From an uncultured Actinomycetota bacterium (lineage in GTDB: Bacteria > Actinomycetota > Actinomycetes > Propionibacteriales > Nocardioidaceae): a stretch of 64,000 nucleotides of DNA. The stretch is taken from contig CAWDUA010000012.1 in NCBI GenBank assembly GCA_963805345.1, positions 503 through 64,502 on the forward strand. Reading direction: 5' to 3'. Below the pieces are notes generated by a model that saw only the letters and a list, made by a program, of their open reading frames with translations, ran no database searches and had not been told where the DNA came from. The position numbers and the translations under genes are program-made. Below, piece after piece: positions 24,900 through 36,086 of this stretch (the stretch's first letter is position 1; every line of letters starts with the position of its first letter).

Positions 24900-24994
24900 C
24901 AGCCCGAAATAGCCGACGATCGCCAACGGTCGAAAGGCTCGCTGACCTGCATGTTCATCGATCCTCAACCAGGACCCACGCTCCGTCGGTCGTA

Positions 24995-25036
24995 CTCTCA
25001 AGGCGGTAGCGCCGGTTCGAATCCGGTCGGGGGTAC
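24995..25036 (+). other. Displaced 3' half of tRNA-Glu(CTC); att site
   Basis: CTCTCAA anticodon loop, GGCGG, TAGC, GCCGG-TTCGAAT-CCGGT T arm, CGGGGGTAC; upstream sequence cannot form a D arm or 5' acceptor strand. Confidence 0.88.
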
Positions 25037-25144
25037 TCATCCGAAAGACCTCTGGTCTGCGCCAGCGCGGCCGGAGAGGAACCGCCCCGGGTCGGCGCCC
25101 CGTCATCGGGACACTGCTGCGGACCCGGGACCGTGTGGTCGCCC

Positions 25145-27673
25145 TCAGACGAGGTGCAGCCGCGGGGAGAGAGCGAGCTTCGAGTTCTCCCTCAGGCCGC
25201 GCCTGCGGAGCCCGTCGTCCGCGACCCGGCGGGCCTTCGTCTTCTGAACCCCGTAGGCGATGCCGGCCTTGACCCACGCCGGGCTGCCGAAGCAGCTGGT
25301 GGGGATGGACACGGTGAGGCGGCCCCGGCGCCGCGCGATGTCCCCAGCGATGTCGCAGGCGACCTTGTCGCCGTCGGAGTTCCGGAGGGTGAACGCGACC
25401 CCGGACCCGTGGTGGTTCCTTCCGGACCAGGAGTACTCCTCGCCGCCCGCGACGTGCAGCCGGCCACCGGCGATCCAGCGGTCGGCGATCGAACCGCTCC
25501 TGACGGTGACCCTCGACGTGAGCTGGTCGCTGGTGTAGTGCAGGCGGGTCTGGACGATGTCGGCGGCCCTGCTGCCGTCGGCTCGCGAGACGTGCCCGTT
25601 GGCGGGATCGTAGTTCTGGGCGTCGTGACTGTCGTCGCGGTGCCGGAAGGACGCCCTGCCCGGCTGCTGGACGCCTTCTTCCACGGTTCCCTGGTAGATG
25701 AACATCGCCCGTGAGGCCCAGCCGGTCCCGGCGGAGGTCAGCTGGGTCACGGTCCCCGCCACCGGTGCGTTCGCCGACTGCCTCCAGGTCGCCGAGAACA
25801 GCGCGCCGGCGGTGGTGGCGTAGTACAGCTTGTCGCCCACCACGAACGCGCCACGCACGGTCGACCAGTTGATGTCACTCGTGGTGGTCGAGAACCGCTG
25901 CTGACCGACGACGTCGTCCTCGACCTCGAAGCCGCGACGGTAGAGCGCGTTCGAACCCGACTTGGTGTAGTAGATCCGACCATTGGCGTAGAAGATGCTG
26001 GTCAGCGTCCTCGCGTCGGTGTGCCAGTCTCTCTGGACGACCAGCGCGTCTGCGGCGTTCACCGGTGACGGGGCGCCATAGGTGCTGCCGTCGAAGGACA
26101 TCTTCGCGACCGCGCCGTCCGAGTCCACCTTGTAGACCAGGCCGTTGACCATGAACGCGCCGGTGGCGCTGCCCCAGCCCGGACCCGTGGGCGCGCTCGC
26201 GGGCGTGTCTGCCGTCGTTCCGGTGAAGCTCAGCCGGGTCAGCTGCGACGCCCCCGAGGCGACCCGGAAGACGGTGGCCGGCAGCGCGCTGGTCTGCAGC
26301 GGCGGCAGAGTCTTGCCTCCCGTGAGAGGCATGAAGGCGATCCGGGGGTGGTAGGTGTTGCCGGGCGTGTGGCCGATCAGCTCGGTGTCGGACCCGACGT
26401 AGAGCCCGTCGGCCGTCGCCAGCATGTCCTGGATCCCGACGCCGCGGGCGCGGGTCGGGTTCCACGAGTACGGCATCCCGTTGACCGTGTTGAGCGCGGC
26501 GATGCCAGTCCGGGCTACCGCGCCGGGGCCCGGCACGTTGTTGCCGCCAGGGTTGTTCTGGTACTTCTGGTGGCCGCCGGCATAGATGACGTTGTCGGTG
26601 ACCTCGACGGTCCACGTCGTGTCGCTGCCCGTGTACGCCGTCCAGCTCGGGGTGGACCTTGCCGTGGTGTCGTCCTCGAACCGGGCGACCACGTCGCACC
26701 CCGACGTGCCGGCGTTGCTCGCCGCGGCGCCGCCGTAGGCGCCGGTGGTGGAGACGACGAAGAAGGTCCCGTTCGGTGCGTACTCGACGTCGGTCATGTA
26801 GGTGTCGAACCGCGCGGCACACGCGGAGGTGTAGAGGGTCGTCGACCAGGGCGACACGCTCGAGTGTGCGCTCGAGCTGGTGCCGCTGGGGATGTTCGCG
26901 ATGTCCAACCGAGCGATCTGCCAGCGGGTCTGGCTGTCGACGCTGGTGAAGTTGCCCACCGCCATCAGCGCGGTGTTCTGGGGGTTGACCGAGATCTGGA
27001 GGACGTCGGTGACCGCGGCCGGGTGAGAGTTGCGCACCCCCGCGAACACGTTGTCGACGTAGGGGTCGCGCTGGCCGGTGTCCGCGTACAGCGTGCCCAG
27101 CGCCTTCTGGTCGACGCCGCCGATGTGGCTGAACTTGCCGGCGACGAACAGGTGGTTTCCGACGACCTCCAGGTCGCGGATCTTGCCGTCGATCTTCGGA
27201 GCGACGAACGAGGAGCTGATCGCCCCGGTGGTCACGTTGATCTTGAACACCTTGCCCGGCACCGACTTTCCGGCGGCGGAGGTGAACTGTCCCCCGACGT
27301 AGACCGACTTGCCGTCGGCGGCCGGCAGCACCTTGTAGACCGTGCCCGTCGGGTTGGGCGCGAATGACGTCAGCAGCTCGCCCGTCGTGGCGTCGAAGGC
27401 CAGCACGTTGTTGCGGGTGACCACGGTGGAGGTGCCGTGGTTCTGCGCGCGGGTGAACTGGCCACCGACGACGATCGTGTTGCCGACCTTGGTGATCGAG
27501 TAGACCGTCCCGTCGAGGATGTTCGGTGCGTTGTTGCCGGGCTCGTCGCTGACGATCCTGCCCGTCTGTGGTGCCGGGTTTCCGGTGTCGGCGGCCCGCG
27601 CGGTGGCGAGCCAGACACTCAGGCCGGAGGACACCACAGCAGCGAGCAACAACGGATACAGCAGTCTGCGCAC
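25145..27673 (-). CDS. Large secreted beta-propeller-rich protein
   Basis: Signal peptide; repeated VGGxF / YVGGQF blades; distinct C-terminal domain after MFIYQG. Confidence 0.85.
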   Translation of the reverse strand: MRRLLYPLLLAAVVSSGLSVWLATARAADTGNPAPQTGRIVSDEPGNNAPNILDGTVYSITKVGNTIVVGGQFTRAQNHGTSTVVTRNNVLAFDATTGELLTSFAPNPTGTVYKVLPAADGKSVYVGGQFTSAAGKSVPGKVFKINVTTGAISSSFVAPKIDGKIRDLEVVGNHLFVAGKFSHIGGVDQKALGTLYADTGQRDPYVDNVFAGVRNSHPAAVTDVLQISVNPQNTALMAVGNFTSVDSQTRWQIARLDIANIPSGTSSSAHSSVSPWSTTLYTSACAARFDTYMTDVEYAPNGTFFVVSTTGAYGGAAASNAGTSGCDVVARFEDDTTARSTPSWTAYTGSDTTWTVEVTDNVIYAGGHQKYQNNPGGNNVPGPGAVARTGIAALNTVNGMPYSWNPTRARGVGIQDMLATADGLYVGSDTELIGHTPGNTYHPRIAFMPLTGGKTLPPLQTSALPATVFRVASGASQLTRLSFTGTTADTPASAPTGPGWGSATGAFMVNGLVYKVDSDGAVAKMSFDGSTYGAPSPVNAADALVVQRDWHTDARTLTSIFYANGRIYYTKSGSNALYRRGFEVEDDVVGQQRFSTTTSDINWSTVRGAFVVGDKLYYATTAGALFSATWRQSANAPVAGTVTQLTSAGTGWASRAMFIYQGTVEEGVQQPGRASFRHRDDSHDAQNYDPANGHVSRADGSRAADIVQTRLHYTSDQLTSRVTVRSGSIADRWIAGGRLHVAGGEEYSWSGRNHHGSGVAFTLRNSDGDKVACDIAGDIARRRGRLTVSIPTSCFGSPAWVKAGIAYGVQKTKARRVADDGLRRRGLRENSKLALSPRLHLV

Positions 27674-28167
27674 GTCGACGGTCCCCCCGTGAGAGGGCAG
27701 ACCGGCACCACGCACCGGTCGCCCTTGCATCCGCAGGCTAACCCCGAACGGGACGTTGTCCTAGTGCGCGTTTCTACGTTCGTTCGCGAGATCGTCGACC
27801 CCTGGTCCCACTGGGCCACGGAGAAGATCGCCCTGGGCCTGGTCGCATGTCGCCACCACCGGTGTCGACTGGCAGGAGTACCTGACCCTTCCCCTGATCT
27901 CGGCTGCGAGCACCTGTCGATGCCGGGCTGCCGCGCATCCCGTGAGGCAGCCCGCGGCCCGCGCACGCAATGCCCTGCGACCCGACCTTCAGGAACCGCG
28001 ACACCGGGTGAGAGAGCCGACCTCGGTGAGGTCAACCGAGCAGCAAATGTGGCCATCCCAACAGTTGCACCCGACAAACTAATTTGGTTCAAGTCGTTGA
28101 CATGAGCGCGCTCGCGAGGTCTAGACCGGTCTGCGGGGCTTCTTGGTGGCAGCCCCTGGGGGTTGTG

Positions 28168-28833
28168 ATGAGACGCTTACTGGGCCCTGCGATGACCGTT
28201 CTGCTGGGGGCCGGCTTCGTTGCCCTGATGGGCTTCCTGCTCCATCAGCAACCCGCGCCCGCCCTCGCTGCGTCGGCGAAGACGGGATCCGCGACTCCCC
28301 ATCACGTGTACCTCCACCTGTCGACGTACCCCGACAGCATGGCGGGCGAGCACGGCAAGGACGGCGGTCCCGAGCCCGACTGGGTGAGCTACGGTCCGAC
28401 GACGACCTTGGAGGTGCCACGGAACTCCCTGGTCACCGTCACGATCAGCCAGTACGACGGCGGCGAGGCGATCACCAACCCATGGTTCGCGCGTGTCCAC
28501 GGCACGATCGACGGGACAGAGACGGTCGACGGCAAGCCAGTGACCGAGGTGGATCCGGCGGCGGTCGGTCACACGTTCACGATCCATGCCGCGCCGACGG
28601 CTCAGGATCCGCTCTTCGTGAGCGCACCGTTGCCTGCGGTTCCAGACGATGCACCGTTGGCGCCGGGGAGCGCCTACCCGAAGCCGATCGAGGTCACCTT
28701 CTCGTTCCGGACCAAGGGTCCGGGCAAGTACGTGTGGAACTGCGAGTTCCCGTGCGGAGACGGCACCTACGCGAAGTTCGGCGGGCCGATGTCCACCCGG
28801 GGCTGGATGTCCGGCACGTTGACGGTCACGTGA
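28168..28833 (+). CDS. Membrane-anchored cupredoxin-like protein
   Basis: N-terminal TM; GHTFT; FSFRTKGPGKYVWNCEFPCG..GPM..WMSGTLTV cupredoxin-type C-terminus. Confidence 0.7.
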   Translation: MRRLLGPAMTVLLGAGFVALMGFLLHQQPAPALAASAKTGSATPHHVYLHLSTYPDSMAGEHGKDGGPEPDWVSYGPTTTLEVPRNSLVTVTISQYDGGEAITNPWFARVHGTIDGTETVDGKPVTEVDPAAVGHTFTIHAAPTAQDPLFVSAPLPAVPDDAPLAPGSAYPKPIEVTFSFRTKGPGKYVWNCEFPCGDGTYAKFGGPMSTRGWMSGTLTVT

Positions 28834-28883
28834 CGTGGTTCGCCACGGTGTGTGTTCGAGACGGGTGTGAGGGAGGCTGAGCC

Positions 28884-29654
28884 GTGTCAGAGACAGAGGT
28901 CGCCGAGAGACGCACTCCCTGGTGGCAGAGCGAGGACGCGCGGGTCCTCGGCGTACTGTGGGCCGCATTCACGGTCCTCGGCGTGGTCTTCGCCCTGATC
29001 GTGCCCCATCACCTGATGGGACCCTCGGCTTCCAACACGATGACCGAGGTGGAGCGCACGTTCACCGTCTTCTCGGTCGCGTCGGCGCCCGTGGCGGCAG
29101 TGGTGTGGGCCTTGCTGGTCTACAGCCTGTGGAAGTGGCGCCGCCGTGGCGACTGGTCACCCGACGACCCCGACGGACCGCCCCTCCGCGGCCACGGGTG
29201 GACGACCGGGCTGTGGATGTTCGCCTCCTCTGCTCTGTGTCTTTTCCTGCTGATCTGGGGTCTGGCAGCCCTCAGCAGTGTCGACTCCGCGACCGCCGCG
29301 ACCCCGCTGGAGATCGAGGTCACGGGGCAACAGTGGATCTGGACGTTCACGTATCCGGACAACGGGAACGTCGAGAGCGACCAGCTCTACCTGCCGATCG
29401 ACCGGCCGGTCGTCTTCCGGGTGACGAGTGACGACGTCATCCATTCCTTCTGGGTCCCCGCGATGGGGATCAAGGTCGATGCGAACCCAGGCATGACGAC
29501 CACCACGCAGACCACGCCCGACCGTCTGGGCACCTACCACGTGAAATGCGCAGAGCTGTGCGGGCTTCTGCACGCCGACATGGAGACCAACGCCCATGTG
29601 GTCTCGGCCGACGACTTCGCCACGTGGGCCGCTTCCCAGGGGGGTAGCCGATGA
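28884..29654 (+). CDS. ctaC: Cytochrome c oxidase subunit II
   Basis: GQQWIW, DVIHSFW, CAELCGLLHADM (CuA). Confidence 0.95.
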   Translation: MSETEVAERRTPWWQSEDARVLGVLWAAFTVLGVVFALIVPHHLMGPSASNTMTEVERTFTVFSVASAPVAAVVWALLVYSLWKWRRRGDWSPDDPDGPPLRGHGWTTGLWMFASSALCLFLLIWGLAALSSVDSATAATPLEIEVTGQQWIWTFTYPDNGNVESDQLYLPIDRPVVFRVTSDDVIHSFWVPAMGIKVDANPGMTTTTQTTPDRLGTYHVKCAELCGLLHADMETNAHVVSADDFATWAASQGGSR

Positions 29655-31582
29655 CCGTCGCCGACTCGTACACGACCGACCCGGTCAAAGGAGGCCCGGA
29701 CGGTGGTGTGATGCGCCGTCTCAACATGGGCACCGGTCTGGTGGGCGGCATCGTCCTCGCCCTGGTCTTCAACCTGGTCGCCAAGTCGCTCGCCGACGAC
29801 GCCGTGCACGAGGTGGACGTCCGCGCGACCGCGACCATGGTCGGCTGGGCGATCGGCTTCATGGCCGGTCTGGGGGCGTTCACCGGCCCGTTCCGGTGGC
29901 TGGTCGGGCGCGACCTGACCCACGCCGACGAGCTCTTCCTGGCCGGGAAGGACCAAGGCGTCGGCCGCTACTTCCGGTTCACGACCGACCACAAGGTCGT
30001 CGGGATCCAGTACCTCGTGCTCACCATGGTCATGCTCGGTGCCGGCGGCACCATGGCGATGCTCATCCGTACCGACCTGATCTCACCGAACTCGGGGTTC
30101 CTCGGCCCGCAGACCTACAACTCGCTGGTCGGTCTGCACGGCCTGACGATGATCCTGGCGACGATCATCATGGTCACGGGACCCTTCGGGAACTTCGTGG
30201 TCCCGTTGATGATCGGTGCCCGGGACATGGCGTTCCCTCGGCTCAACGCCTTGAGCCTCTGGCTCCTGGTGGCCATGTTGCCGGTGCTGTACTCGGCCGC
30301 CTTCCTCGGGGGCATCCCGATGGGCTGGGTCGGTTACACGCCGATCGCGGACCAAGGGCCCGCCGGCGTCGACTCCTACATGGTGGCCATCTTGATCTTC
30401 GCGGTCTCGACGGCGGTGGCCGGCTCGAACATCACGACGACGATCCTGACCATGCGGGCGCGCGGGATGACCTGGACGCGCACCCCGATCTTCGTGTACG
30501 GCGTCCTGGCCAGCGTCGTGCTGGCTCTGCCCGCCTTCCCCATGTTCATGGGGGCCGAGATCCTGCTCCTGGTCGACCGGCTGATGGGTGGCGGGTTCTA
30601 CGTTCCCAGCCTCGGAGGCCAGCCCTGGCTCTACCAGAACCTGTTCTGGCTGATGGGGCATCCCGAGGTCTACGTCATCCTGATCCCCGCCGTCGCGGCG
30701 CTGATGGAGCTGACGGCGGTGTTCGCGCGCAAGCCCCTCTACAGCTTCCGGATCGCCGTCCTGTCGATCATCGCGATCGTGGGCCTCAGCGTCACCGTCT
30801 GGGCGCACCACATGTTCGCCTCCGGCTGGGCGCCGGACCTCAACGGTCCGTTCATGCTCACGACAGAGATGATCTCGATCCCCACCGGTGGTCTGTTCCT
30901 GGTCATCCTCGGCACCCTGTGGCGTGGTCGCATCTGGACGACGCTGCCGCTGATGTGCACCTACGCCATGCTCTGGAACTTCATCATCGGCGGGATCACC
31001 GGGATCTACCTGTCGGACGTTCCGCTCGACTACCAGCTGCACGGCTCCATGTTCGTGACAGCTCACTTCCACTACACGCTGATGGGTGCGGGACTCACGG
31101 GCGCCATCGGCGCGATGGCCTACTGGTTCCCCAAGATGACGGGCCGGATGCTGGGCACGACGTCGGGCTTCGTCTCCTTCTGGGTGGTCCAGATCGGGTT
31201 CAACGTGACGTTCCTCGGGATGTTCATGGTCGGACTGGAGGGTCAGCCTCGTCGAGTCGTCCACTACGAAGCCGCCTACCACGCGGGAAACCTGATCTCC
31301 ACGATCGGCGCCTACTTCATCGGGGTCGGCATGCTCATCTTGTTGTACGACGTGATCGCGTCGTGGCGACACGGTGAGGTCGCGCCGATGAACCCCTGGG
31401 GCGCCAAGACGCTGGAGTGGACGGTCCCGAACCCGATCCCCTTGGAGAACTTCGCCGTTCTGCCCGTGGTCACCGAGGACGCCTACGGATACGGCGAACC
31501 GGCTGAGCCCGAACGGGTGCCGGTATCGGTCTCTGCGGGCGCCGATACGGGTCCGGAACAGGGCGAAGGGGCGATGACATGA
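29651..31582 (+). CDS. ctaD: Heme-copper oxidase subunit I (A-type, atypical)
   Basis: TTDHK, LHG, DMAFPRLN, GHPEVY, WAHH, AHFHY, PRR. Confidence 0.97.
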   Translation: MTVADSYTTDPVKGGPDGGVMRRLNMGTGLVGGIVLALVFNLVAKSLADDAVHEVDVRATATMVGWAIGFMAGLGAFTGPFRWLVGRDLTHADELFLAGKDQGVGRYFRFTTDHKVVGIQYLVLTMVMLGAGGTMAMLIRTDLISPNSGFLGPQTYNSLVGLHGLTMILATIIMVTGPFGNFVVPLMIGARDMAFPRLNALSLWLLVAMLPVLYSAAFLGGIPMGWVGYTPIADQGPAGVDSYMVAILIFAVSTAVAGSNITTTILTMRARGMTWTRTPIFVYGVLASVVLALPAFPMFMGAEILLLVDRLMGGGFYVPSLGGQPWLYQNLFWLMGHPEVYVILIPAVAALMELTAVFARKPLYSFRIAVLSIIAIVGLSVTVWAHHMFASGWAPDLNGPFMLTTEMISIPTGGLFLVILGTLWRGRIWTTLPLMCTYAMLWNFIIGGITGIYLSDVPLDYQLHGSMFVTAHFHYTLMGAGLTGAIGAMAYWFPKMTGRMLGTTSGFVSFWVVQIGFNVTFLGMFMVGLEGQPRRVVHYEAAYHAGNLISTIGAYFIGVGMLILLYDVIASWRHGEVAPMNPWGAKTLEWTVPNPIPLENFAVLPVVTEDAYGYGEPAEPERVPVSVSAGADTGPEQGEGAMT

Positions 31583-32268
31583 GCACCGAGTCGCTCGTCA
31601 ACAAGGAGGCCTTCGCACCCGAGGAGCCGGAGGACTTCGGCGATCGCTGGCGCACCGGCGTCCTGCTCCTGATCGTGGCGGACGCCTCGTTCGTGGCGGC
31701 GCTGTCCTTCGCGTTCCTCTACCTGCGAGGCATCAACACCCAGTCGTCGTTCCACCCGGGAGGCACCGGTGTGGCCTCGCTGTGGTGGCCCTGGCTGGTG
31801 ACGGCGGTGATGATCGCCTCCTTCCTCGCCTATCGCCTCGGGCTGGAGGCACACGAGCCGGGACGGCGACACTTCCTCAACGGCGGCGTCGTGGCCCTGG
31901 TCGGCATGTGCGTCGCATTGGTGCTCAACATCGTCGAGATGGCCGAGTTCCCCTTCCACGTCAGCGACAACGCGTACTCGTCGGCGGTCTGGGTCCTCGC
32001 GGCGGGGAACGTCTTCCACCTGCTGATCACGGTGTTCCTCGGGCTCGGCATCGTCATCCGGGTGCAGCGGCGGGTCACGCGCGGCGCCCGGGACTGGCAC
32101 GTGCGCCTCGTCGGCATCTGGTTCGCGTGGGTGTGCGTCGCAGCACTCATCGGAGCACTCACGGTCACTGTCGCCAATGGGACCGTGGGCTGCCCGCTAC
32201 CTGCGGATCAGCCGGATCCCGGGGCCCGGTCAGTAGTGGCGCCGTCGTGTCCCAGCGCGTCGAGGTAG
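31579..32268 (+). CDS. ctaE: Cytochrome c oxidase subunit III (short form)
   Basis: ATGA overlap with ctaD; about 5 TM helices; NAYSSAVW..GNVFHLL; 3' end uncertain. Confidence 0.75.
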   Translation: MSTESLVNKEAFAPEEPEDFGDRWRTGVLLLIVADASFVAALSFAFLYLRGINTQSSFHPGGTGVASLWWPWLVTAVMIASFLAYRLGLEAHEPGRRHFLNGGVVALVGMCVALVLNIVEMAEFPFHVSDNAYSSAVWVLAAGNVFHLLITVFLGLGIVIRVQRRVTRGARDWHVRLVGIWFAWVCVAALIGALTVTVANGTVGCPLPADQPDPGARSVVAPSCPSASR

Positions 32269-32588
32269 TCCTGCCACGCCCGCAGGCCCGGATCGTCCTC
32301 GGGGATGTCGCGGTCGTCGGGCCTGCGCGGAGGGCTCGGCCGGCGTGTCTCGCGCTCGGTGACCAGTCGCCACCACATCCAGCCGAACAGCACGGCGAAC
32401 AGCGGCCACTCGAAGACGTACACCCACGCGATGGTGTGACCGTCGCGCGCCCGGGTCAGCTCGAACCATCCCGCCGCGAAGCAGAAGCAGACGGCCGGCA
32501 GGAAGACAGCGTGGTAGCGCAGGTTCTGCCTCGTCCAGACCCTCGGCCTGGACGTTGCATCGCGCGCAGCACTCCTCGGACGGCTCAT
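32208..32588 (-). CDS. Small membrane protein resembling mycobacterial LprD
   Basis: GWFELTRA..WVYVFEWPLFA..DPGLRAWQDYL pattern; similarity recalled, not searched. Confidence 0.6.
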   Translation of the reverse strand: MSRPRSAARDATSRPRVWTRQNLRYHAVFLPAVCFCFAAGWFELTRARDGHTIAWVYVFEWPLFAVLFGWMWWRLVTERETRRPSPPRRPDDRDIPEDDPGLRAWQDYLDALGHDGATTDRAPGSG

Positions 32589-33439
32589 CCGCGGGCCCTC
32601 GACGCCAGGGGGCCGGTGCCCCGCTCCTGGCGGCGGGTGCGGCGTTCCTCGTCCTCCAGCCACTGGTATCCGGCGACCACGAGCCAGACCACCCCCAGCG
32701 CCATGGACGTCGACCACATCAAGATGCCTGCGAGGTGCTGGTCGGCGAGCGGGTCCGGGCCGAACGGGCGTGCGACGTGTGCGTAGTAGGGATAGCCGAG
32801 GTGGGGCTCGGCGAAGATGGCGAAGCCCAACATGGCCATCGGGACCATCACCGTGAACAGCGAGACCATGCGCACGCCGTGGGGCACATGCCGGGTCCCG
32901 GTCGACGGGACCAGGAGCGGCTGGAAGTACACCACCGCGCTGACCAGATAGAGCGTGTGCTCGAGGTAGTCGTGCAGGAGCGGATGGGTCAGGAAGCCGT
33001 CGTACACGGCAGGGAGGTGGGTGATACCCATGACGCCCACGAAGAACACCCAGCCGAAGACGGGGTTGGTCAGCACCAGCACGACACGGCTGCGCAGGAC
33101 GGGCACCCACAGCCGTCGCCGGGTGTCAGCGTCACTGGCCCGAAGCACCAGCAGCACCGGCTCGCCGAGGACCAGCAGGGGAGCAGCCAGCATGGTGAGC
33201 AGGATGTGCTGGGTCATGTGGGCGTAGAAGAAGACGTCGTCGTAGGCTCCCGGAGGTCCGACCAGGGCGAACGCCGTGACGACCAGCCCGGAGACGAAGC
33301 ACACCGTGCGGGACGCCTGCCACGGCTGCGAAGGCGAACGCCGTGTGACCCGGGACGTCGCCACGACGTACCACGTTCCGCAGGCGAGCACCGCCAGCCA
33401 GGGGACCGGAGAGAGCTCCCAGGCCCCCAGCAGCCGCAT
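32585..33439 (-). CDS. CtaG (Caa3_CtaG)-family oxidase assembly protein
   Basis: HMTQHILLTMLAAP, WVFFVGVMGITH, EHTLYL, DQHLAGILMW; start approximate. Confidence 0.88.
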   Translation of the reverse strand: MRLLGAWELSPVPWLAVLACGTWYVVATSRVTRRSPSQPWQASRTVCFVSGLVVTAFALVGPPGAYDDVFFYAHMTQHILLTMLAAPLLVLGEPVLLVLRASDADTRRRLWVPVLRSRVVLVLTNPVFGWVFFVGVMGITHLPAVYDGFLTHPLLHDYLEHTLYLVSAVVYFQPLLVPSTGTRHVPHGVRMVSLFTVMVPMAMLGFAIFAEPHLGYPYYAHVARPFGPDPLADQHLAGILMWSTSMALGVVWLVVAGYQWLEDEERRTRRQERGTGPLASRARG

Positions 33440-33465
33440 GGCTTCGGTCACGTCCACGCACGGTA

Positions 33466-33485
33466 CGCGCCTTCCGGCAGGCGCG
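33466..33485. promoter_or_regulatory. 7-6-7 palindrome between the divergent ctaG-like and sco genes
   Basis: CGCGCCT-TCCGGC-AGGCGCG. Confidence 0.35.
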
Positions 33486-34238
33486 GAATACTCTTCGCCA
33501 CTGCAATTCTCGTGCTGCTCGTCGTCGCGTCGGGGTGCGGTACGCGCGGGTCCGCGGCCGACGCCGGGCCCGCCGCGCCGGAGATCGGGACATCCCTCGA
33601 CGCCCCGGTGCCCGACAGCGTTCTCACCGCGCCGCTCATCGACAGCCACGGGCACCCCACCACGCTGGGAGCCCTTCAGGGCAAGGTGATCGTGCTCTCC
33701 GATGTGATGACCCTGTGTGCCGAGTCCTGCCCGATCATCACCGCGAGCATGGTGGCCGCTGCGCGCGACATCGACCGCACCCCTCTGGGTCGACATGTCG
33801 AGTTCGTCAGCCTCACCATCGACCCGACCCGCGACGACGGCCAACACCTGCGCGCCTACCAGCGGCAGTTCGGGAGGCTGCCCAACTGGACCGTGCTGAC
33901 GGGGAGCCCACGGGTCGTCAACGGGGTGTGGCACACGCTGGGGGTCTGGCGACACCTCACCCATCTGAAGCCGCCGTTCTCCCGCGACTGGGTCACCGGC
34001 GCACCCTTGACGACGGACATCGCCCACACCGACGAGCTGATCTTCATCAGTGGCGCGCAGAACTTCCGCTACGAGCTCGAGGGCTATGGGAACGTGTCAC
34101 CGTCCGCGATCCCCAAGCGGATCTACGACTTCATGGACCGGCTCGGCCACCGCAACGTCTCGACGCCGGACCCCGGTTCCTGGACCCCCGCTGAGGTGAC
34201 CCAGGTGCTCCGACTGGGTCCTCGGGAGCACCCAGTGA
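33480..34238 (+). CDS. SCO family copper chaperone (lipoprotein); start not found, 3' end possibly frameshifted
   Basis: VVASGC lipobox, CAESCP (CxxxC), [13 protein letters not shown]. Confidence 0.85.
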
Positions 34239-34771
34239 GGGCGGCCCTGCTTTCCTTCGCGCTCGCCCTCGTCTGCGCGTCCTGCTCGTCGATGCACCGC
34301 GCGCCCGCGACTCCCGCTCTGGGGTCCGGCCTGCAGGTGTTCCCGGCCGCCACCCGCACGTCCGCCCCGAGCATCAGCGGCACCACGATCAACGGCGACT
34401 CGCTCGACCTCGCCGACGAGATGGGGCACGGCGTGGTCGCCCTGAACGTCTGGGCCTCCTGGTGCGGCCCGTGCCGCAAGGAGATGCCGGTGCTGGCTCG
34501 CGCCGCGGGGAAGCGGCTGCGGGTGATCGGGATCGACGAGCGCGACAGCAGCCGTTCGGCCCGGTCCTTCGCAACCTCGCGCGGCGTGTCCTACCCGAGC
34601 CTGTCGGACCCACAGGGAGAGCTCCTCGCGGACCTTCCCATGCTGCCCCAGACCGGTGTGCCCAGCACGCTCTTCCTCGACGCCCGGGGCCGCGTGGCCG
34701 CACGCGTCATCGGGCCCGTCGACGCACGTGGCCTCCGTCGCATCCTCCGACAGCTAGGAGCATCCCGATGA
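34235..34771 (+). CDS. TlpA/ResA-like thiol-disulfide redoxin
   Basis: [24 protein letters not shown]; own signal peptide from GTG 34235. Confidence 0.9.
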
Positions 34772-35691
34772 CCGCGCCCCTGGTGACGACGACGCCCGGT
34801 CTGACCGCCACGCGCGAGCTGGTCTCGGCGTACGTCGCGTTGACCAAGCCGCGCATCATCGAGCTCCTGCTCTTGACGACCCTCCCTGTGATGTTCCTGG
34901 CCAGTGACGGTGTGCCACCGCTCGGCCTGGTCGTGGCGACCCTCGTGGGCGGAACGCTGTCGGCGGGCAGCGCCAACGTCCTCAACTGCGTCGTCGACGC
35001 CGACATCGACGCCCGGATGAGGCGCACTCGTCGCCGACCGCTCGCGCGCGACCTCGTGTCCCGACGCTCTGCGCTCGTGTTCGGCCTGGTACTCGGAGCA
35101 GTCTCCACCGTCGGCCTCGGGGTCCTCGTGAACTGGTTGTCGGCGTGCCTGGCGCTGGCCGCCAACGTCTTCTACGTCGTGGGCTACACGATCTGGCTGA
35201 AGCCTCGGACGAGTCAGAACATCGTCTGGGGTGGCGCCGCCGGCTGCTTCCCCACCCTCATCGGCTGGACCGCCGTCCAGGACGGCCTGGCCTGGCCCCC
35301 GGTCGTGCTCTTCCTCGTCGTCTTCTTGTGGACCCCGCCACACTTCTGGGCGCTGGCCATGCGCTACCGCGAGGACTATGCAGCCGCCGACGTGCCGATG
35401 CTGCCCGTGGTCGCGCCGACCCAGGTCGTGGCACGTCAGATCCTCCGGTACGCACTGGCGACCGTGGCCATGTCGCTGGTCTTGTGGCCGGCCGCGCACA
35501 CGGGCCTCGTCTATCCCGCCTTCGCGGCGGTGCTCGGTGCAGCCTTCATCGGCGAGTCGGCGCTCCTGCTGAGCCGTGCTCGCGGCTCCGACGATCTGTC
35601 GGTGCTCCAGCCGATGAGACTCTTCCACCTCTCGAACCTCTACCTGAGCCTTCTGTTCCTGGCCGTGGCCCTGGTGCCGTTCGCACGCTGA
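34768..35691 (+). CDS. ctaB: Heme o synthase (protoheme IX farnesyltransferase)
   Basis: [49 protein letters not shown]. Confidence 0.95.
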
Positions 35692-35702
35692 CGCCGCGGG
35701 CC

Positions 35703-36086
35703 TCAGTCCACCAGCGCGTCGTCGAGCTCCGAGAACTCGCTGGCAACCGAGAACCAGACAGAGCGCCACTCGCCTGCGATCGGCGAGAGTCGCCACGCCG
35801 GTGCCTCCGGGCCGTTCGCGAGCAGGAGATAGCTGCGCACCGTGACCAGCTCACGGAACGGCGCGAGCTGGTCATCGGGCAGGTCGTCGCGACGAACGGC
35901 GTGCAGGAACCACCCCGTGGGGTGGCGGACGGCCACCAGAACGCCGTCGACCGTCGCGCCGCCCGCGGCCTCGCCCTCGTTCGCCAAGGCGGTCACGGTC
36001 CTCGGATCGGCGACGAGGACCTGGGTTGCGGACGCCACGTCCCACAGCGGGTCGACGGGTCGTTCGCGATCGCGGAAGAAGTGCAT
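35703..36086 (-). CDS. Hypothetical protein
   Basis: ATG 36086 after GAGGAG; protein-like sequence. Confidence 0.65.
   Translation of the reverse strand: MHFFRDRERPVDPLWDVASATQVLVADPRTVTALANEGEAAGGATVDGVLVAVRHPTGWFLHAVRRDDLPDDQLAPFRELVTVRSYLLLANGPEAPAWRLSPIAGEWRSVWFSVASEFSELDDALVD

What the first reader, a model, noticed from the sequence alone, without database searches (positions are those of the whole stretch)
28168..28833. Unusual cupredoxin-like protein (His, CxxxC, Met, Met) heads the oxidase operon
Seen: a TM anchor, GHTFT, then WNCEFPCG..GPM..WM. It has two Cys like a CuA loop but no second His, unlike type-1 sites (C..H..M) or CuA (CxExCxxxHxxM). No cytochrome c or qcr gene is in the cluster. 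Inference: it may be a novel copper electron donor or chaperone dedicated to this oxidase, analogous in position to AcoP or sulfocyanin.
Basis: partly seen in the sequence, partly recalled or inferred. Interest (0 to 1): 0.65.

Follow-up and report, generated by a model that had tools for sequence, protein, structure and literature searches.

The report
Unnamed copper protein partnering an oxidase
The first gene of this second respiratory oxidase operon encodes a membrane-anchored copper-type (cupredoxin) protein from a large unnamed family with an undescribed set of likely copper ligands (one His, two Cys, two Met), and it most likely feeds electrons to the oxidase in place of a cytochrome c.

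Summary
ORF 28168-28833 (+) encodes a 221-aa protein with an N-terminal membrane helix and the motifs GHTFT, WNCEFPCG, GGPM and GWM. It matches no Pfam or NCBIfam model. The AlphaFold2 model (pLDDT 90) matches only cupredoxins: auracyanin, rusticyanin, ba3 subunit II and nitrite reductase.

Across 69 homologues down to 30% identity, the invariant residues are H135, C192, P195, C196, M208, M214 and G216. The motif H...C-x3-C-x10/11-M-x5-M appears in about 99% of full-length relatives, and the loop almost never contains a His. Weak profile matches align the His and both Cys with the CuA site of subunit II.

In 78 of 78 informative loci the gene directly precedes COX2-COX1-COX3. In 301 genomes of the order, it and this oxidase occur in the same two genomes. 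It evolves more slowly than COX2.

Distant relatives head Rieske/cytochrome b operons (archaea) or sit in NrfD/FeS clusters, where a cytochrome c would normally be. None of these clusters, including this one, has a haem-c motif.

Best reading (about 0.55): a dedicated copper electron-entry partner of the oxidase, with a CuA-derived site. Rival readings are a copper chaperone and a non-redox subunit. The family is a new variant of a known kind and has not been characterised experimentally.

The parts
28168..28833 (+). Gene for the 221-aa membrane-anchored cupredoxin ('CUP'), first gene of the oxidase operon
   Evidence: Translation. No Pfam or NCBIfam hit. 1179 homologues within word-search reach and 414 representatives at 50% identity. 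Cupredoxin fold.
28171..28245 (+). N-terminal membrane anchor (residues 2-26, preceded by RR). It places the domain outside the cytoplasm. G14 and G22 are conserved.
   Evidence: The AF2 model gives a helix at 2-26. G14 and G22 are invariant among close relatives. Some distant homologues carry lipoprotein-type signals instead.
28570..28572 (+). H135 (GHTFT), the candidate N-terminal His copper ligand
   Evidence: Invariant in 69 diverse homologues. Aligned with the first CuA His of subunit II by hhalign.
28741..28755 (+). C192-E-F-P-C196, a C-x3-C pair in the ligand loop
   Evidence: Both Cys and P195 are invariant. They align with the two bridging Cys of CuA (CAELC). C192 aligns with the type-1 Cys of auracyanin B.
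28789..28809 (+). M208 (GGPM) and M214 (GWM-S-G-T), candidate thioether ligands. By pattern, M214 matches the axial Met and M208 sits where the C-terminal His normally is.
   Evidence: Both Met are invariant. M-[SK]-G-T matches the ...AGMKGT end of auracyanin B shown. The assignment is an inference.
28884..29654 (+). Oxidase subunit II with an intact CuA motif (CAELCGLLHADM) and no cytochrome c domain
   Evidence: PF00116 at 7.5e-22 and TIGR02866 at 1.5e-51. No CxxCH motif.
29651..31582 (+). Oxidase subunit I of the divergent A-type lineage, with an N-terminal extension of about 110 aa
   Evidence: PF00115 at 1e-118, starting at residue 117. Below the NCBIfam cut-offs for canonical types. It is the second COX1 of the genome. 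Canonical CtaD proteins align only from residue 110, at 38-41% identity.
31579..32268 (+). Subunit III-like membrane protein
   Evidence: Weak PF00510 hit. Always follows COX1 in related loci.
32585..34027 (-). Caa3-type CtaG assembly factor. The ORF as listed is probably over-extended at its 5' end.
   Evidence: PF09678 at 6.8e-59, residues 218-457.
33401..34771 (+). Sco1/SenC-like (CAESC) and TlpA-like thioredoxin (WCGPC) in one open frame; CuA assembly factors
   Evidence: PF02630 and PF00578/PF08534 hits. No stop codon between them.
34462..35691 (+). Haem O synthase (CtaB, UbiA family)
   Evidence: PF01040 at 4e-64.

Best explanation
The gene encodes a membrane-anchored cupredoxin that faces outward. 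Its copper site derives from the CuA type: H135, the C192-x3-C196 pair, M208 in the place of the usual C-terminal His, and M214 as the axial Met. It most likely acts as the dedicated redox partner, that is the electron-entry protein or accessory redox subunit, of the divergent A-type haem-copper oxidase encoded directly downstream. In that role it would pass electrons to the CuA centre of subunit II where other organisms use a cytochrome c. Shown here: the fold, the invariant ligand set, the strict genetic coupling to the oxidase, and the placement of distant relatives in quinol-oxidising complexes that lack cytochrome c. Inferred: copper binding, whether the site holds one or two copper atoms, the direction of electron flow, and physical association with the oxidase.
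For: Fold: the AF2 model has pLDDT 90.4. The best Foldseek hits are auracyanin, rusticyanin, ba3 subunit II and Cu nitrite reductase, all at probability 1.0. A family profile hits auracyanin B at 5e-5.

Site: only H135, C192, P195, C196, M208, M214 and G216 are invariant over 69 sequences down to 30% identity. The motif is present in about 99% of full-length relatives.

CuA ancestry: hhalign aligns H135 and both Cys with the CuA His and Cys of the adjacent subunit II (E 1e-4 and 2.5e-4). The best sub-threshold NCBIfam and Pfam hits of distant members are to CoxB and to NosZ CuA domains.

Coupling to the oxidase:
- CUP-COX2-COX1-COX3 is found in 78/78 informative loci out of 454 places in one-genome-per-species data, while the assembly genes move around.
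- In 301 genomes of the order, CUP and this COX1 type occur in exactly the same two genomes.
- Both are absent from 24 same-genus genomes in one sample, and this COX1 type is absent from a further 25 same-genus genomes.
- Mean pairwise distance is 0.39 for CUP, 0.45 for COX2 and 0.55 for COX3. CUP distances correlate with those of the subunits at r 0.84-0.91.

Electron-carrier context:
- Relatives with the same motif head Rieske-cyt b operons in Nitrososphaerota- and Thermoplasmata-type contigs. In two of these the relative is a tandem di-cupredoxin, mirroring the qcrC-qcrA-qcrB order.
- Other relatives sit in Fer4_11-NrfD clusters alongside other cupredoxins.
- Published work posits such a BCP upstream of Rieske as the complex III electron carrier in archaea that lack cytochrome c (PMC9038741).
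- No CxxCH motif occurs in the cluster. The only PF13442 cytochrome c in five CUP-bearing genomes is the dihaem QcrC next to the canonical ctaD.
- Small freshwater actinobacterial genomes of 1.1-1.3 Mb that carry CUP also keep this second oxidase.
Against: There is no experimental evidence of copper binding or electron transfer for any member. A His-to-Met change with two thiolates also resembles Cu(I)-trafficking sites (Sco: CxxxC+His; PCuAC: His/Met). The genome lacks PCuAC. Four distant homologues stand alone with no respiratory neighbours. The upstream donor to CUP is unknown. The hhalign probabilities are only 43-57%.
Confidence: 0.55

Rival explanations
1. Copper chaperone or assembly factor. 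The His/Cys2/Met2 site binds Cu(I) and delivers it to the CuA (or CuB) site of this oxidase, standing in functionally for PCuAC.
For: The ligand chemistry resembles Sco (CxxxC + His) and PCuAC (His/Met) by established knowledge. PCuAC (PF04314) is absent from the window's genome and from 7 of 8 other CUP-bearing genomes. The window cluster also holds CtaG, Sco, TlpA and CtaB.
Against: PCuAC is equally absent from 20 of 25 same-genus genomes that lack CUP yet have a canonical CuA oxidase. In related loci the true assembly genes move or are absent, while CUP stays fixed in front of COX2. CUP is more conserved than COX2 itself, which is unusual for an assembly factor. Homologues with the same motif sit in Rieske/cyt b and NrfD/FeS operons that contain no oxidase.
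Confidence: 0.2
2. Non-redox accessory subunit. The cupredoxin domain and its helix only stabilise or shield the oxidase (the 'protective' role first reported for AcoP). The Cys pair would be a structural disulfide, or the site an evolutionary relic.
For: The synteny is strict and the conservation is at subunit level. Conserved Gly in the membrane helix suggests helix packing. AcoP is reported to keep cytochrome c oxidase activity optimal (PMC4059628).
Against: His, two Cys and two Met at canonical ligand positions stay invariant down to 30% identity, across bacteria and archaea and across three different genomic contexts. That is hard to explain without a metal. Relic CuA domains such as that of quinol oxidase CyoA lose their ligands (established knowledge).
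Confidence: 0.15
3. Catalytic copper protein. In this reading it oxidises an external substrate such as Fe(II) or a small reductant and passes the electrons to the oxidase, instead of relaying them from another respiratory complex.
For: The oxidase lineage is the one discussed for iron oxidisers (PMC8239418). Distant CUP relatives occur in Sulfobacillus, Alicyclobacillaceae and Acidimicrobiales MAGs. The oxidase-linked clade has extra invariant H46, H62, H140, E193 and D198 that could form a second site.
Against: The carriers here are neutral soil and freshwater Actinomycetota. No substrate-related genes are linked. The extra residues could not be placed in space.
Confidence: 0.07

Closest known systems
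CuA domain of haem-copper oxidase subunit II (COX2, PF00116) and of nitrous-oxide reductase
   Same: Cupredoxin fold, membrane-anchored and facing outward. An N-terminal His on a 'H-[ST]-F' strand followed by 'P-x-L-G', a C-x3-C-G ligand loop and a following Met. These are the best (weak) profile matches.
   Different: The His of C-x3-C-x3-H-x2-M is missing. The loop is 8-9 residues longer and Gly-rich, and carries two invariant Met (C-x3-C-x10/11-M-x5-M). The Glu at C+2 is not conserved. P0001 gets no PF00116 hit. It is encoded in addition to a normal subunit II.
AcoP ('cup'), the cupredoxin encoded just before coxB in the Acidithiobacillus ferrooxidans rus operon
   Same: A membrane-associated single-domain cupredoxin whose gene directly precedes subunit II of an A-type oxidase (10.1101/2020.03.01.968255). 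An unusually long Cys-to-Met loop. Interacts with the oxidase and is a proposed electron-transfer partner (PMC4059628).
   Different: AcoP has 'classical copper ligands' and a green mononuclear site (PMC4059628). CUP lacks the second His and has a second Cys. No sequence relationship was detected or tested. AcoP works with cytochrome c, and none is linked here.
Type-1 blue copper carriers (auracyanin, rusticyanin, plastocyanin-like BCPs of archaeal complex III, sulfocyanin)
   Same: They share the fold and give the best structural matches. Auracyanin is likewise membrane-anchored (established knowledge). Archaeal BCP genes upstream of Rieske/cyt b are posited as electron carriers replacing cytochrome c (PMC9038741), and CUP relatives occupy exactly that position.
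   Different: The type-1 set His-Cys-His-Met is not met. The sulfocyanin model TIGR03094 gives only a weak N-terminal match to one archaeal relative, far below its cut-off.
Sco1/SenC and PCuAC copper chaperones
   Same: CxxxC plus His (Sco) or His/Met (PCuAC) ligands, outward-facing and membrane-tethered, and genetically linked to oxidases.
   Different: Sco has a thioredoxin fold and PCuAC a different beta fold. PF02630 and PF04314 do not match CUP. A genuine Sco is encoded separately in the cluster.

Membership tests
Cupredoxin fold superfamily | Greek-key beta-sandwich with the metal site at one end, formed by a His on an inner strand and a Cys-to-Met loop before the last strand | tested here: met
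   The AF2 model has pLDDT 90.4. Its strands place H135 in strand 133-140, C192 just after strand 186-191 and M214 just before strand 215-220. All top Foldseek hits are cupredoxins. Profile hit to auracyanin B at 5e-5.
Type-1 blue copper proteins | Ligand set His, Cys, His, Met (or Gln/Leu), with the second His 2-5 residues after the Cys in the loop | tested here: not met
   No His lies between C192 and M214. A His occurs in this loop in 2 of about 425 relatives. A second invariant Cys is present instead.
CuA domain (PF00116 / TIGR02866) | H ... C-x-E-x-C-x3-H-x2-M motif binding two copper atoms | tested here: not met
   The first His and the C-x3-C are present and align with CuA. The second His is absent and the Met spacing differs.
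CuA domain (PF00116 / TIGR02866) | Score above the curated family threshold | tested here: not met
   P0001 has no hit at E<=1. Only the archaeal tandem relative P0224 passes PF00116 (35.5 bits against a cut-off of 22).
CuA domain (PF00116 / TIGR02866) | Mixed-valence binuclear copper centre (purple, 7-line EPR) | not testable with these tools
   Needs the purified protein.
AcoP-like oxidase partners | Gene directly upstream of coxB in an A-type oxidase operon | tested here: met
   78/78 informative loci.
AcoP-like oxidase partners | Classical His-Cys-His-Met ligands giving a green site; sequence homology to AcoP | tested here: not met
   The ligand set differs. Homology to AcoP itself was not tested because no AcoP sequence was on hand. 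No AcoP entry appeared among the listed PDB profile or fold hits.
Sco1/SenC | Thioredoxin fold with CxxxC + His (PF02630) | tested here: not met
   No PF02630 hit. The fold is a cupredoxin.
PCuAC | PF04314 domain with H(M)x10Mx21HxM | tested here: not met
   No PF04314 hit.
Sulfocyanin (TIGR03094) | Score above the curated threshold | tested here: not met
   No hit for P0001. For the archaeal relative P0450 the score is 20.5 bits against a cut-off of 168.

The most novel reading that the evidence does not exclude
The family carries a natural binuclear, CuA-type copper centre in which the C-terminal His ligand is replaced by Met: His + axial Met on one copper, and Met + a backbone carbonyl on the other, bridged by the two Cys. 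That would be a new class of biological copper centre, probably of high potential. It would form a cytochrome-free 'copper wire' between quinol-oxidising complexes and terminal oxidases in Actinomycetota (including the abundant freshwater Nanopelagicales), Firmicutes, Nitrososphaerota and Thermoplasmata.
Probability: 0.3. Interest if true: 0.85.

Novelty: new variant of a known kind. Interest (0 to 1): 0.62.

Why it matters
Cupredoxin copper sites are textbook models in bioinorganic chemistry, and only a few natural ligand sets are known: type 1, green, red and CuA. A widespread, strictly conserved His-Cys2-Met2 set would add a new one, and it can be tested directly by expressing a domain of about 180 aa.

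Biologically, it offers an answer to how a divergent second oxidase is supplied with electrons. That oxidase is widely spread among soil and freshwater Actinomycetota and has no linked cytochrome c. In the five CUP-bearing genomes tested, the only cytochrome c of the Pfam type searched (PF13442) is the QcrC of the canonical supercomplex.

It also links that oxidase to the copper-based, cytochrome-free respiratory chains posited for Nitrososphaerota and Thermoplasmata. The family has no Pfam or NCBIfam model and is annotated 'hypothetical protein' almost everywhere, so a family definition would improve the annotation of at least several hundred genomes.

Tried and rejected
- Pfam, NCBIfam and PDB sequence searches with the single protein gave nothing useful. 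The only PDB hits were two S-layer proteins at E 0.1-0.3, which I dismissed as compositional.
- The search for related loci with the diverse alignment A2 failed because it had no conserved 7-10 column stretch. I repeated it with A3.
- The promoter scan found no sigma-70-like site upstream of the gene. The small hairpin at 28834-28847 just after the stop is no more than the shuffled controls give.
- I considered and rejected PCuAC replacement as a general explanation, because most same-genus genomes lack both PCuAC and CUP.
- I considered H140 or H62 as the 'missing' second His. This is unlikely, because they are lost in the wider family and lie outside the ligand loop. It could not be excluded for this clade without coordinates.
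- Structure prediction returns no coordinates, so distances between ligands could not be measured.
- Three context look-ups (P0161, P0177, P0232) landed on contigs too short to be informative.

Full report
**Observation.** The ORF at 28168-28833 (+) encodes 221 aa. The longest ORF starts at a TTG at 28084. Close homologues are 217-230 aa and begin at the same MRR, so 28168 is the real start.
- a hydrophobic N-terminal helix after two Arg (residues 2-26);
- GHTFT (134-138);
- WNCEFPCG (190-197);
- GGPM (205-208);
- GWM (212-214).

The gene ends 50 bp before the GTG of subunit II. No gene of the cluster has a C-x-x-C-H haem-c motif.

**Surroundings.**
- Downstream on the same strand lie subunit II with an intact CuA motif (28884-29654), subunit I (29651-31582) and a subunit III-like protein (31579-32268).
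- After those come a Caa3-type CtaG on the other strand, a Sco1-like and a TlpA-like protein in one frame, and CtaB.
- Subunit I has an extension of about 110 aa and scores below the NCBIfam cut-offs for canonical types.
- The genome has a second, canonical COX1 on another contig.
I confirmed the extension and the divergence: canonical CtaD proteins align only from residue 110, at 38-41% identity. I did not re-test the K channel.

**What the protein is.**
- It matches no Pfam or NCBIfam model, even at E<=1, and no PDB sequence.
- It is not an orphan. There are 1179 homologues within reach of the word search, almost all named 'hypothetical protein'. The exhaustive search found 414 cluster representatives at 50% identity.
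- AlphaFold2 on a 69-sequence alignment gives a confident model (pLDDT 90.4, pTM 0.77): one N-terminal helix and a beta-sandwich.
- Foldseek against the PDB returns only cupredoxins at the top: auracyanin, rusticyanin, ba3 subunit II, copper nitrite reductase and laccase domains.
- A profile of the family hits auracyanin B at E 5e-5, followed by nitrite reductases and ba3 subunit II.

The cupredoxin fold is therefore established as far as prediction allows.

**The site.**
- In the 69-sequence alignment (down to 30% identity, mean column identity 20%), the only invariant columns are H135, C192, P195, C196, M208, M214 and G216.
- Counted over everything retrieved, C-x3-C-x(10 or 11)-M-x5-M-x-G with an upstream H[TS][FW][TS] is present in 118/119 close relatives, 107/109 relatives of a distant bacterial member and 118/118 archaeal relatives. 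A His inside the loop occurs in 2 of about 425.
- In the model's secondary structure, H135 lies on an inner strand, C192 directly follows the penultimate strand and M214 directly precedes the last strand. These are the canonical cupredoxin ligand positions.
- hhalign aligns H135 with the first CuA His, and C192/C196 with the two CuA Cys of the adjacent subunit II. E is 1e-4 against the single sequence and 2.5e-4 against an alignment of 77 subunit II sequences, with probabilities of 57% and 43%.
- The best sub-threshold family hits of distant members are to CoxB and to the CuA domains of NosZ. One archaeal tandem member passes the PF00116 threshold, and its loop reads CETICGSG.
- By pattern, M214-S-G-T matches the M-K-G-T at the axial Met of auracyanin B, and M208 lies six residues before it, where the C-terminal His ligand normally is. 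This last assignment is my inference.

I read the site as CuA-derived, with Met replacing the second His and a longer Gly-rich loop. Whether it holds one copper atom or two cannot be decided here.

**A caveat on the clade.** Within the oxidase-linked clade (51 loci), H62 (51/51), H140 (50/51), H46 (49/51), E193 (51/51) and D198 (49/51) are also conserved. They are not conserved in the wider family. H62 and H140 sit in clade-specific insertions. They could form a docking surface or a second site. I could not place them in space because the model's coordinates are not returned.

**Linkage to the oxidase.**
- A scan of one genome per species found 454 places encoding a relative.
- In the best 80 loci (48-87% identity), every locus whose contig continues has COX2 directly after the gene (78/78), followed by COX1 and COX3 on the same strand. 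CtaG, Sco/TlpA and CtaB are upstream, downstream, inverted or absent. One freshwater locus (L069) has the whole four-gene unit duplicated in tandem.
- The carriers are Actinomycetota: Nocardioidaceae, Pseudonocardiales, Frankiales, Streptosporangiales, Dermatophilaceae and Nanopelagicales.
- The eight carrier genomes tested, including two small freshwater genomes of 1.1-1.3 Mb, hold both the canonical COX1 and this one.
- Within the window's own genus the gene is absent from 24 other species, and this COX1 type is absent from a further 25 same-genus genomes.
- In 301 genomes of the order, the gene and this COX1 type occur in exactly the same two genomes, adjacent to each other.
- Over 50 loci, mean pairwise distance is 0.39 for this protein, 0.45 for COX2, 0.29 for COX1 and 0.55 for COX3. 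Its distances correlate with those of the three subunits at r 0.84-0.91.

The protein behaves like a structural component of the oxidase unit, not like the movable assembly genes.

**Distant relatives.** This is the evidence that best separates electron carrier from chaperone.

| Relative(s) | Context |
|---|---|
| P0224, P0229 (tandem di-cupredoxins, 29-32% identity, both domains with the full motif) | Directly upstream of Rieske, and of cytochrome b where the contig continues. Same order as actinobacterial qcrC (dihaem)-qcrA-qcrB. |
| P0450 (single domain, Nitrososphaerota type) | Heads a cluster ending in Rieske-cytochrome b |
| P0193, P0325 (bacterial members from acid-mine-type Actinomycetota) | In Fer4_11-NrfD clusters with further cupredoxins and no cytochrome |
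| P0184, P0321, P0331, P0340 | Stand alone |
| P0161, P0177, P0232 | Contigs too short to be informative |

The archaeal branch is large and named from Nitrososphaerales, Nitrososphaerota and Thermoplasmataceae MAGs. Diamond et al. [quoted passage not shown] Angelarchaeales with no cytochrome c. They posited it as the electron carrier, as in ammonia-oxidising archaea. Rieske/cyt b and NrfD/FeS modules oxidise quinol and need an outward-facing acceptor. A copper chaperone specific to oxidases has no reason to be there.

In five CUP-bearing genomes, the only PF13442 cytochrome c is one dihaem protein next to the canonical ctaD, which is QcrC. This second oxidase therefore has no cytochrome c of that type of its own.

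**Chaperone rival.** The ligand chemistry (thiolates, thioethers, one His) also fits Cu(I) trafficking. PCuAC is absent from the window's genome and from 7 of 8 other carriers. But 20 of 25 same-genus genomes without this gene also lack PCuAC while having a CuA oxidase. The absence therefore says little. I keep this rival at 0.2.

**Other rivals.** A non-redox stabilising subunit gets 0.15. A substrate-oxidising copper protein gets 0.07.

**Comparison with the known.** The protein works most like AcoP, auracyanin or the archaeal complex III BCPs: a tethered cupredoxin in a respiratory chain. In sequence and motif it is closest to CuA domains. It fails the defining ligand tests of type-1 sites and of CuA (no second His), and it fails the thresholds of every curated family tested. 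I found no paper describing this family or this ligand set. That is limited to the open-access library searched.

Other notes of this scan saw the same motif in other genomes, and one follow-up (e1-5224676) reached the same reading. That is not independent evidence. I re-derived the fold, motif and synteny here, and added the order-level co-occurrence, the rate comparison and the Rieske/cyt b and NrfD contexts.

**Verdict.** The protein is a member of a large, unnamed cupredoxin family with an undescribed conserved ligand set, and is most probably the dedicated electron-entry partner of a divergent A-type oxidase (0.55). In novelty terms it is a new variant of a known kind. Everything about metal content and electron transfer remains inference until the domain is purified.

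Noticed in passing
L084:6001-11027 and L099:2211-7657: Fer4_11 + NrfD (quinol-dehydrogenase-like) genes flanked by two or three cupredoxins: one from this family, one Cupredoxin_1 and one weak COX2-like. No cytochrome is present. It looks like a haem-free ACIII/Psr-like quinol:cupredoxin oxidoreductase in acid-mine-type Actinomycetota.
   Followed up: partly
L090:1077-4523 and L094:1401-3392: A tandem di-cupredoxin (two full copies of the H/CxxxC/M/M domain), then Rieske, then cytochrome b where the contig continues (L090). The order is the same as actinobacterial qcrC (dihaem)-qcrA-qcrB, as if copper domains replace the two haems.
   Followed up: partly
L069:314-8376: The whole CUP-COX2-COX1-COX3 unit is duplicated in tandem in a freshwater actinobacterial MAG.
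   Followed up: no
window 28168-28833 (residues 46, 62, 140, 193, 198): H46, H62, H140, E193 and D198 are (nearly) invariant only in the oxidase-linked clade, and H62 and H140 sit in clade-specific insertions. They may form a second metal site or a docking surface. This is unexplained.
   Followed up: partly
window 33401-34771 (+): A Sco1-like lipoprotein (CAESC) and a TlpA-like thioredoxin (WCGPC) lie in one open frame without a stop, with a second lipobox-like stretch between them. This is either a fusion or an internal start. In some related loci the two match as one continuous segment.
   Followed up: partly
window 32208-32600 (-): A small ORF with two hydrophobic stretches lies between COX3 and CtaG and has no Pfam match. 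It may be an unannotated small membrane protein of the cluster.
   Followed up: no
window 24900-36000: The oxidase cluster, including this gene, is present in only 2 of 301 genomes of the order.
   Followed up: partly
window 25145-27730 (-): An 861-aa secreted protein with weak beta-propeller matches (Rax2, DUF5122) is encoded divergently upstream of the operon.
   Followed up: no
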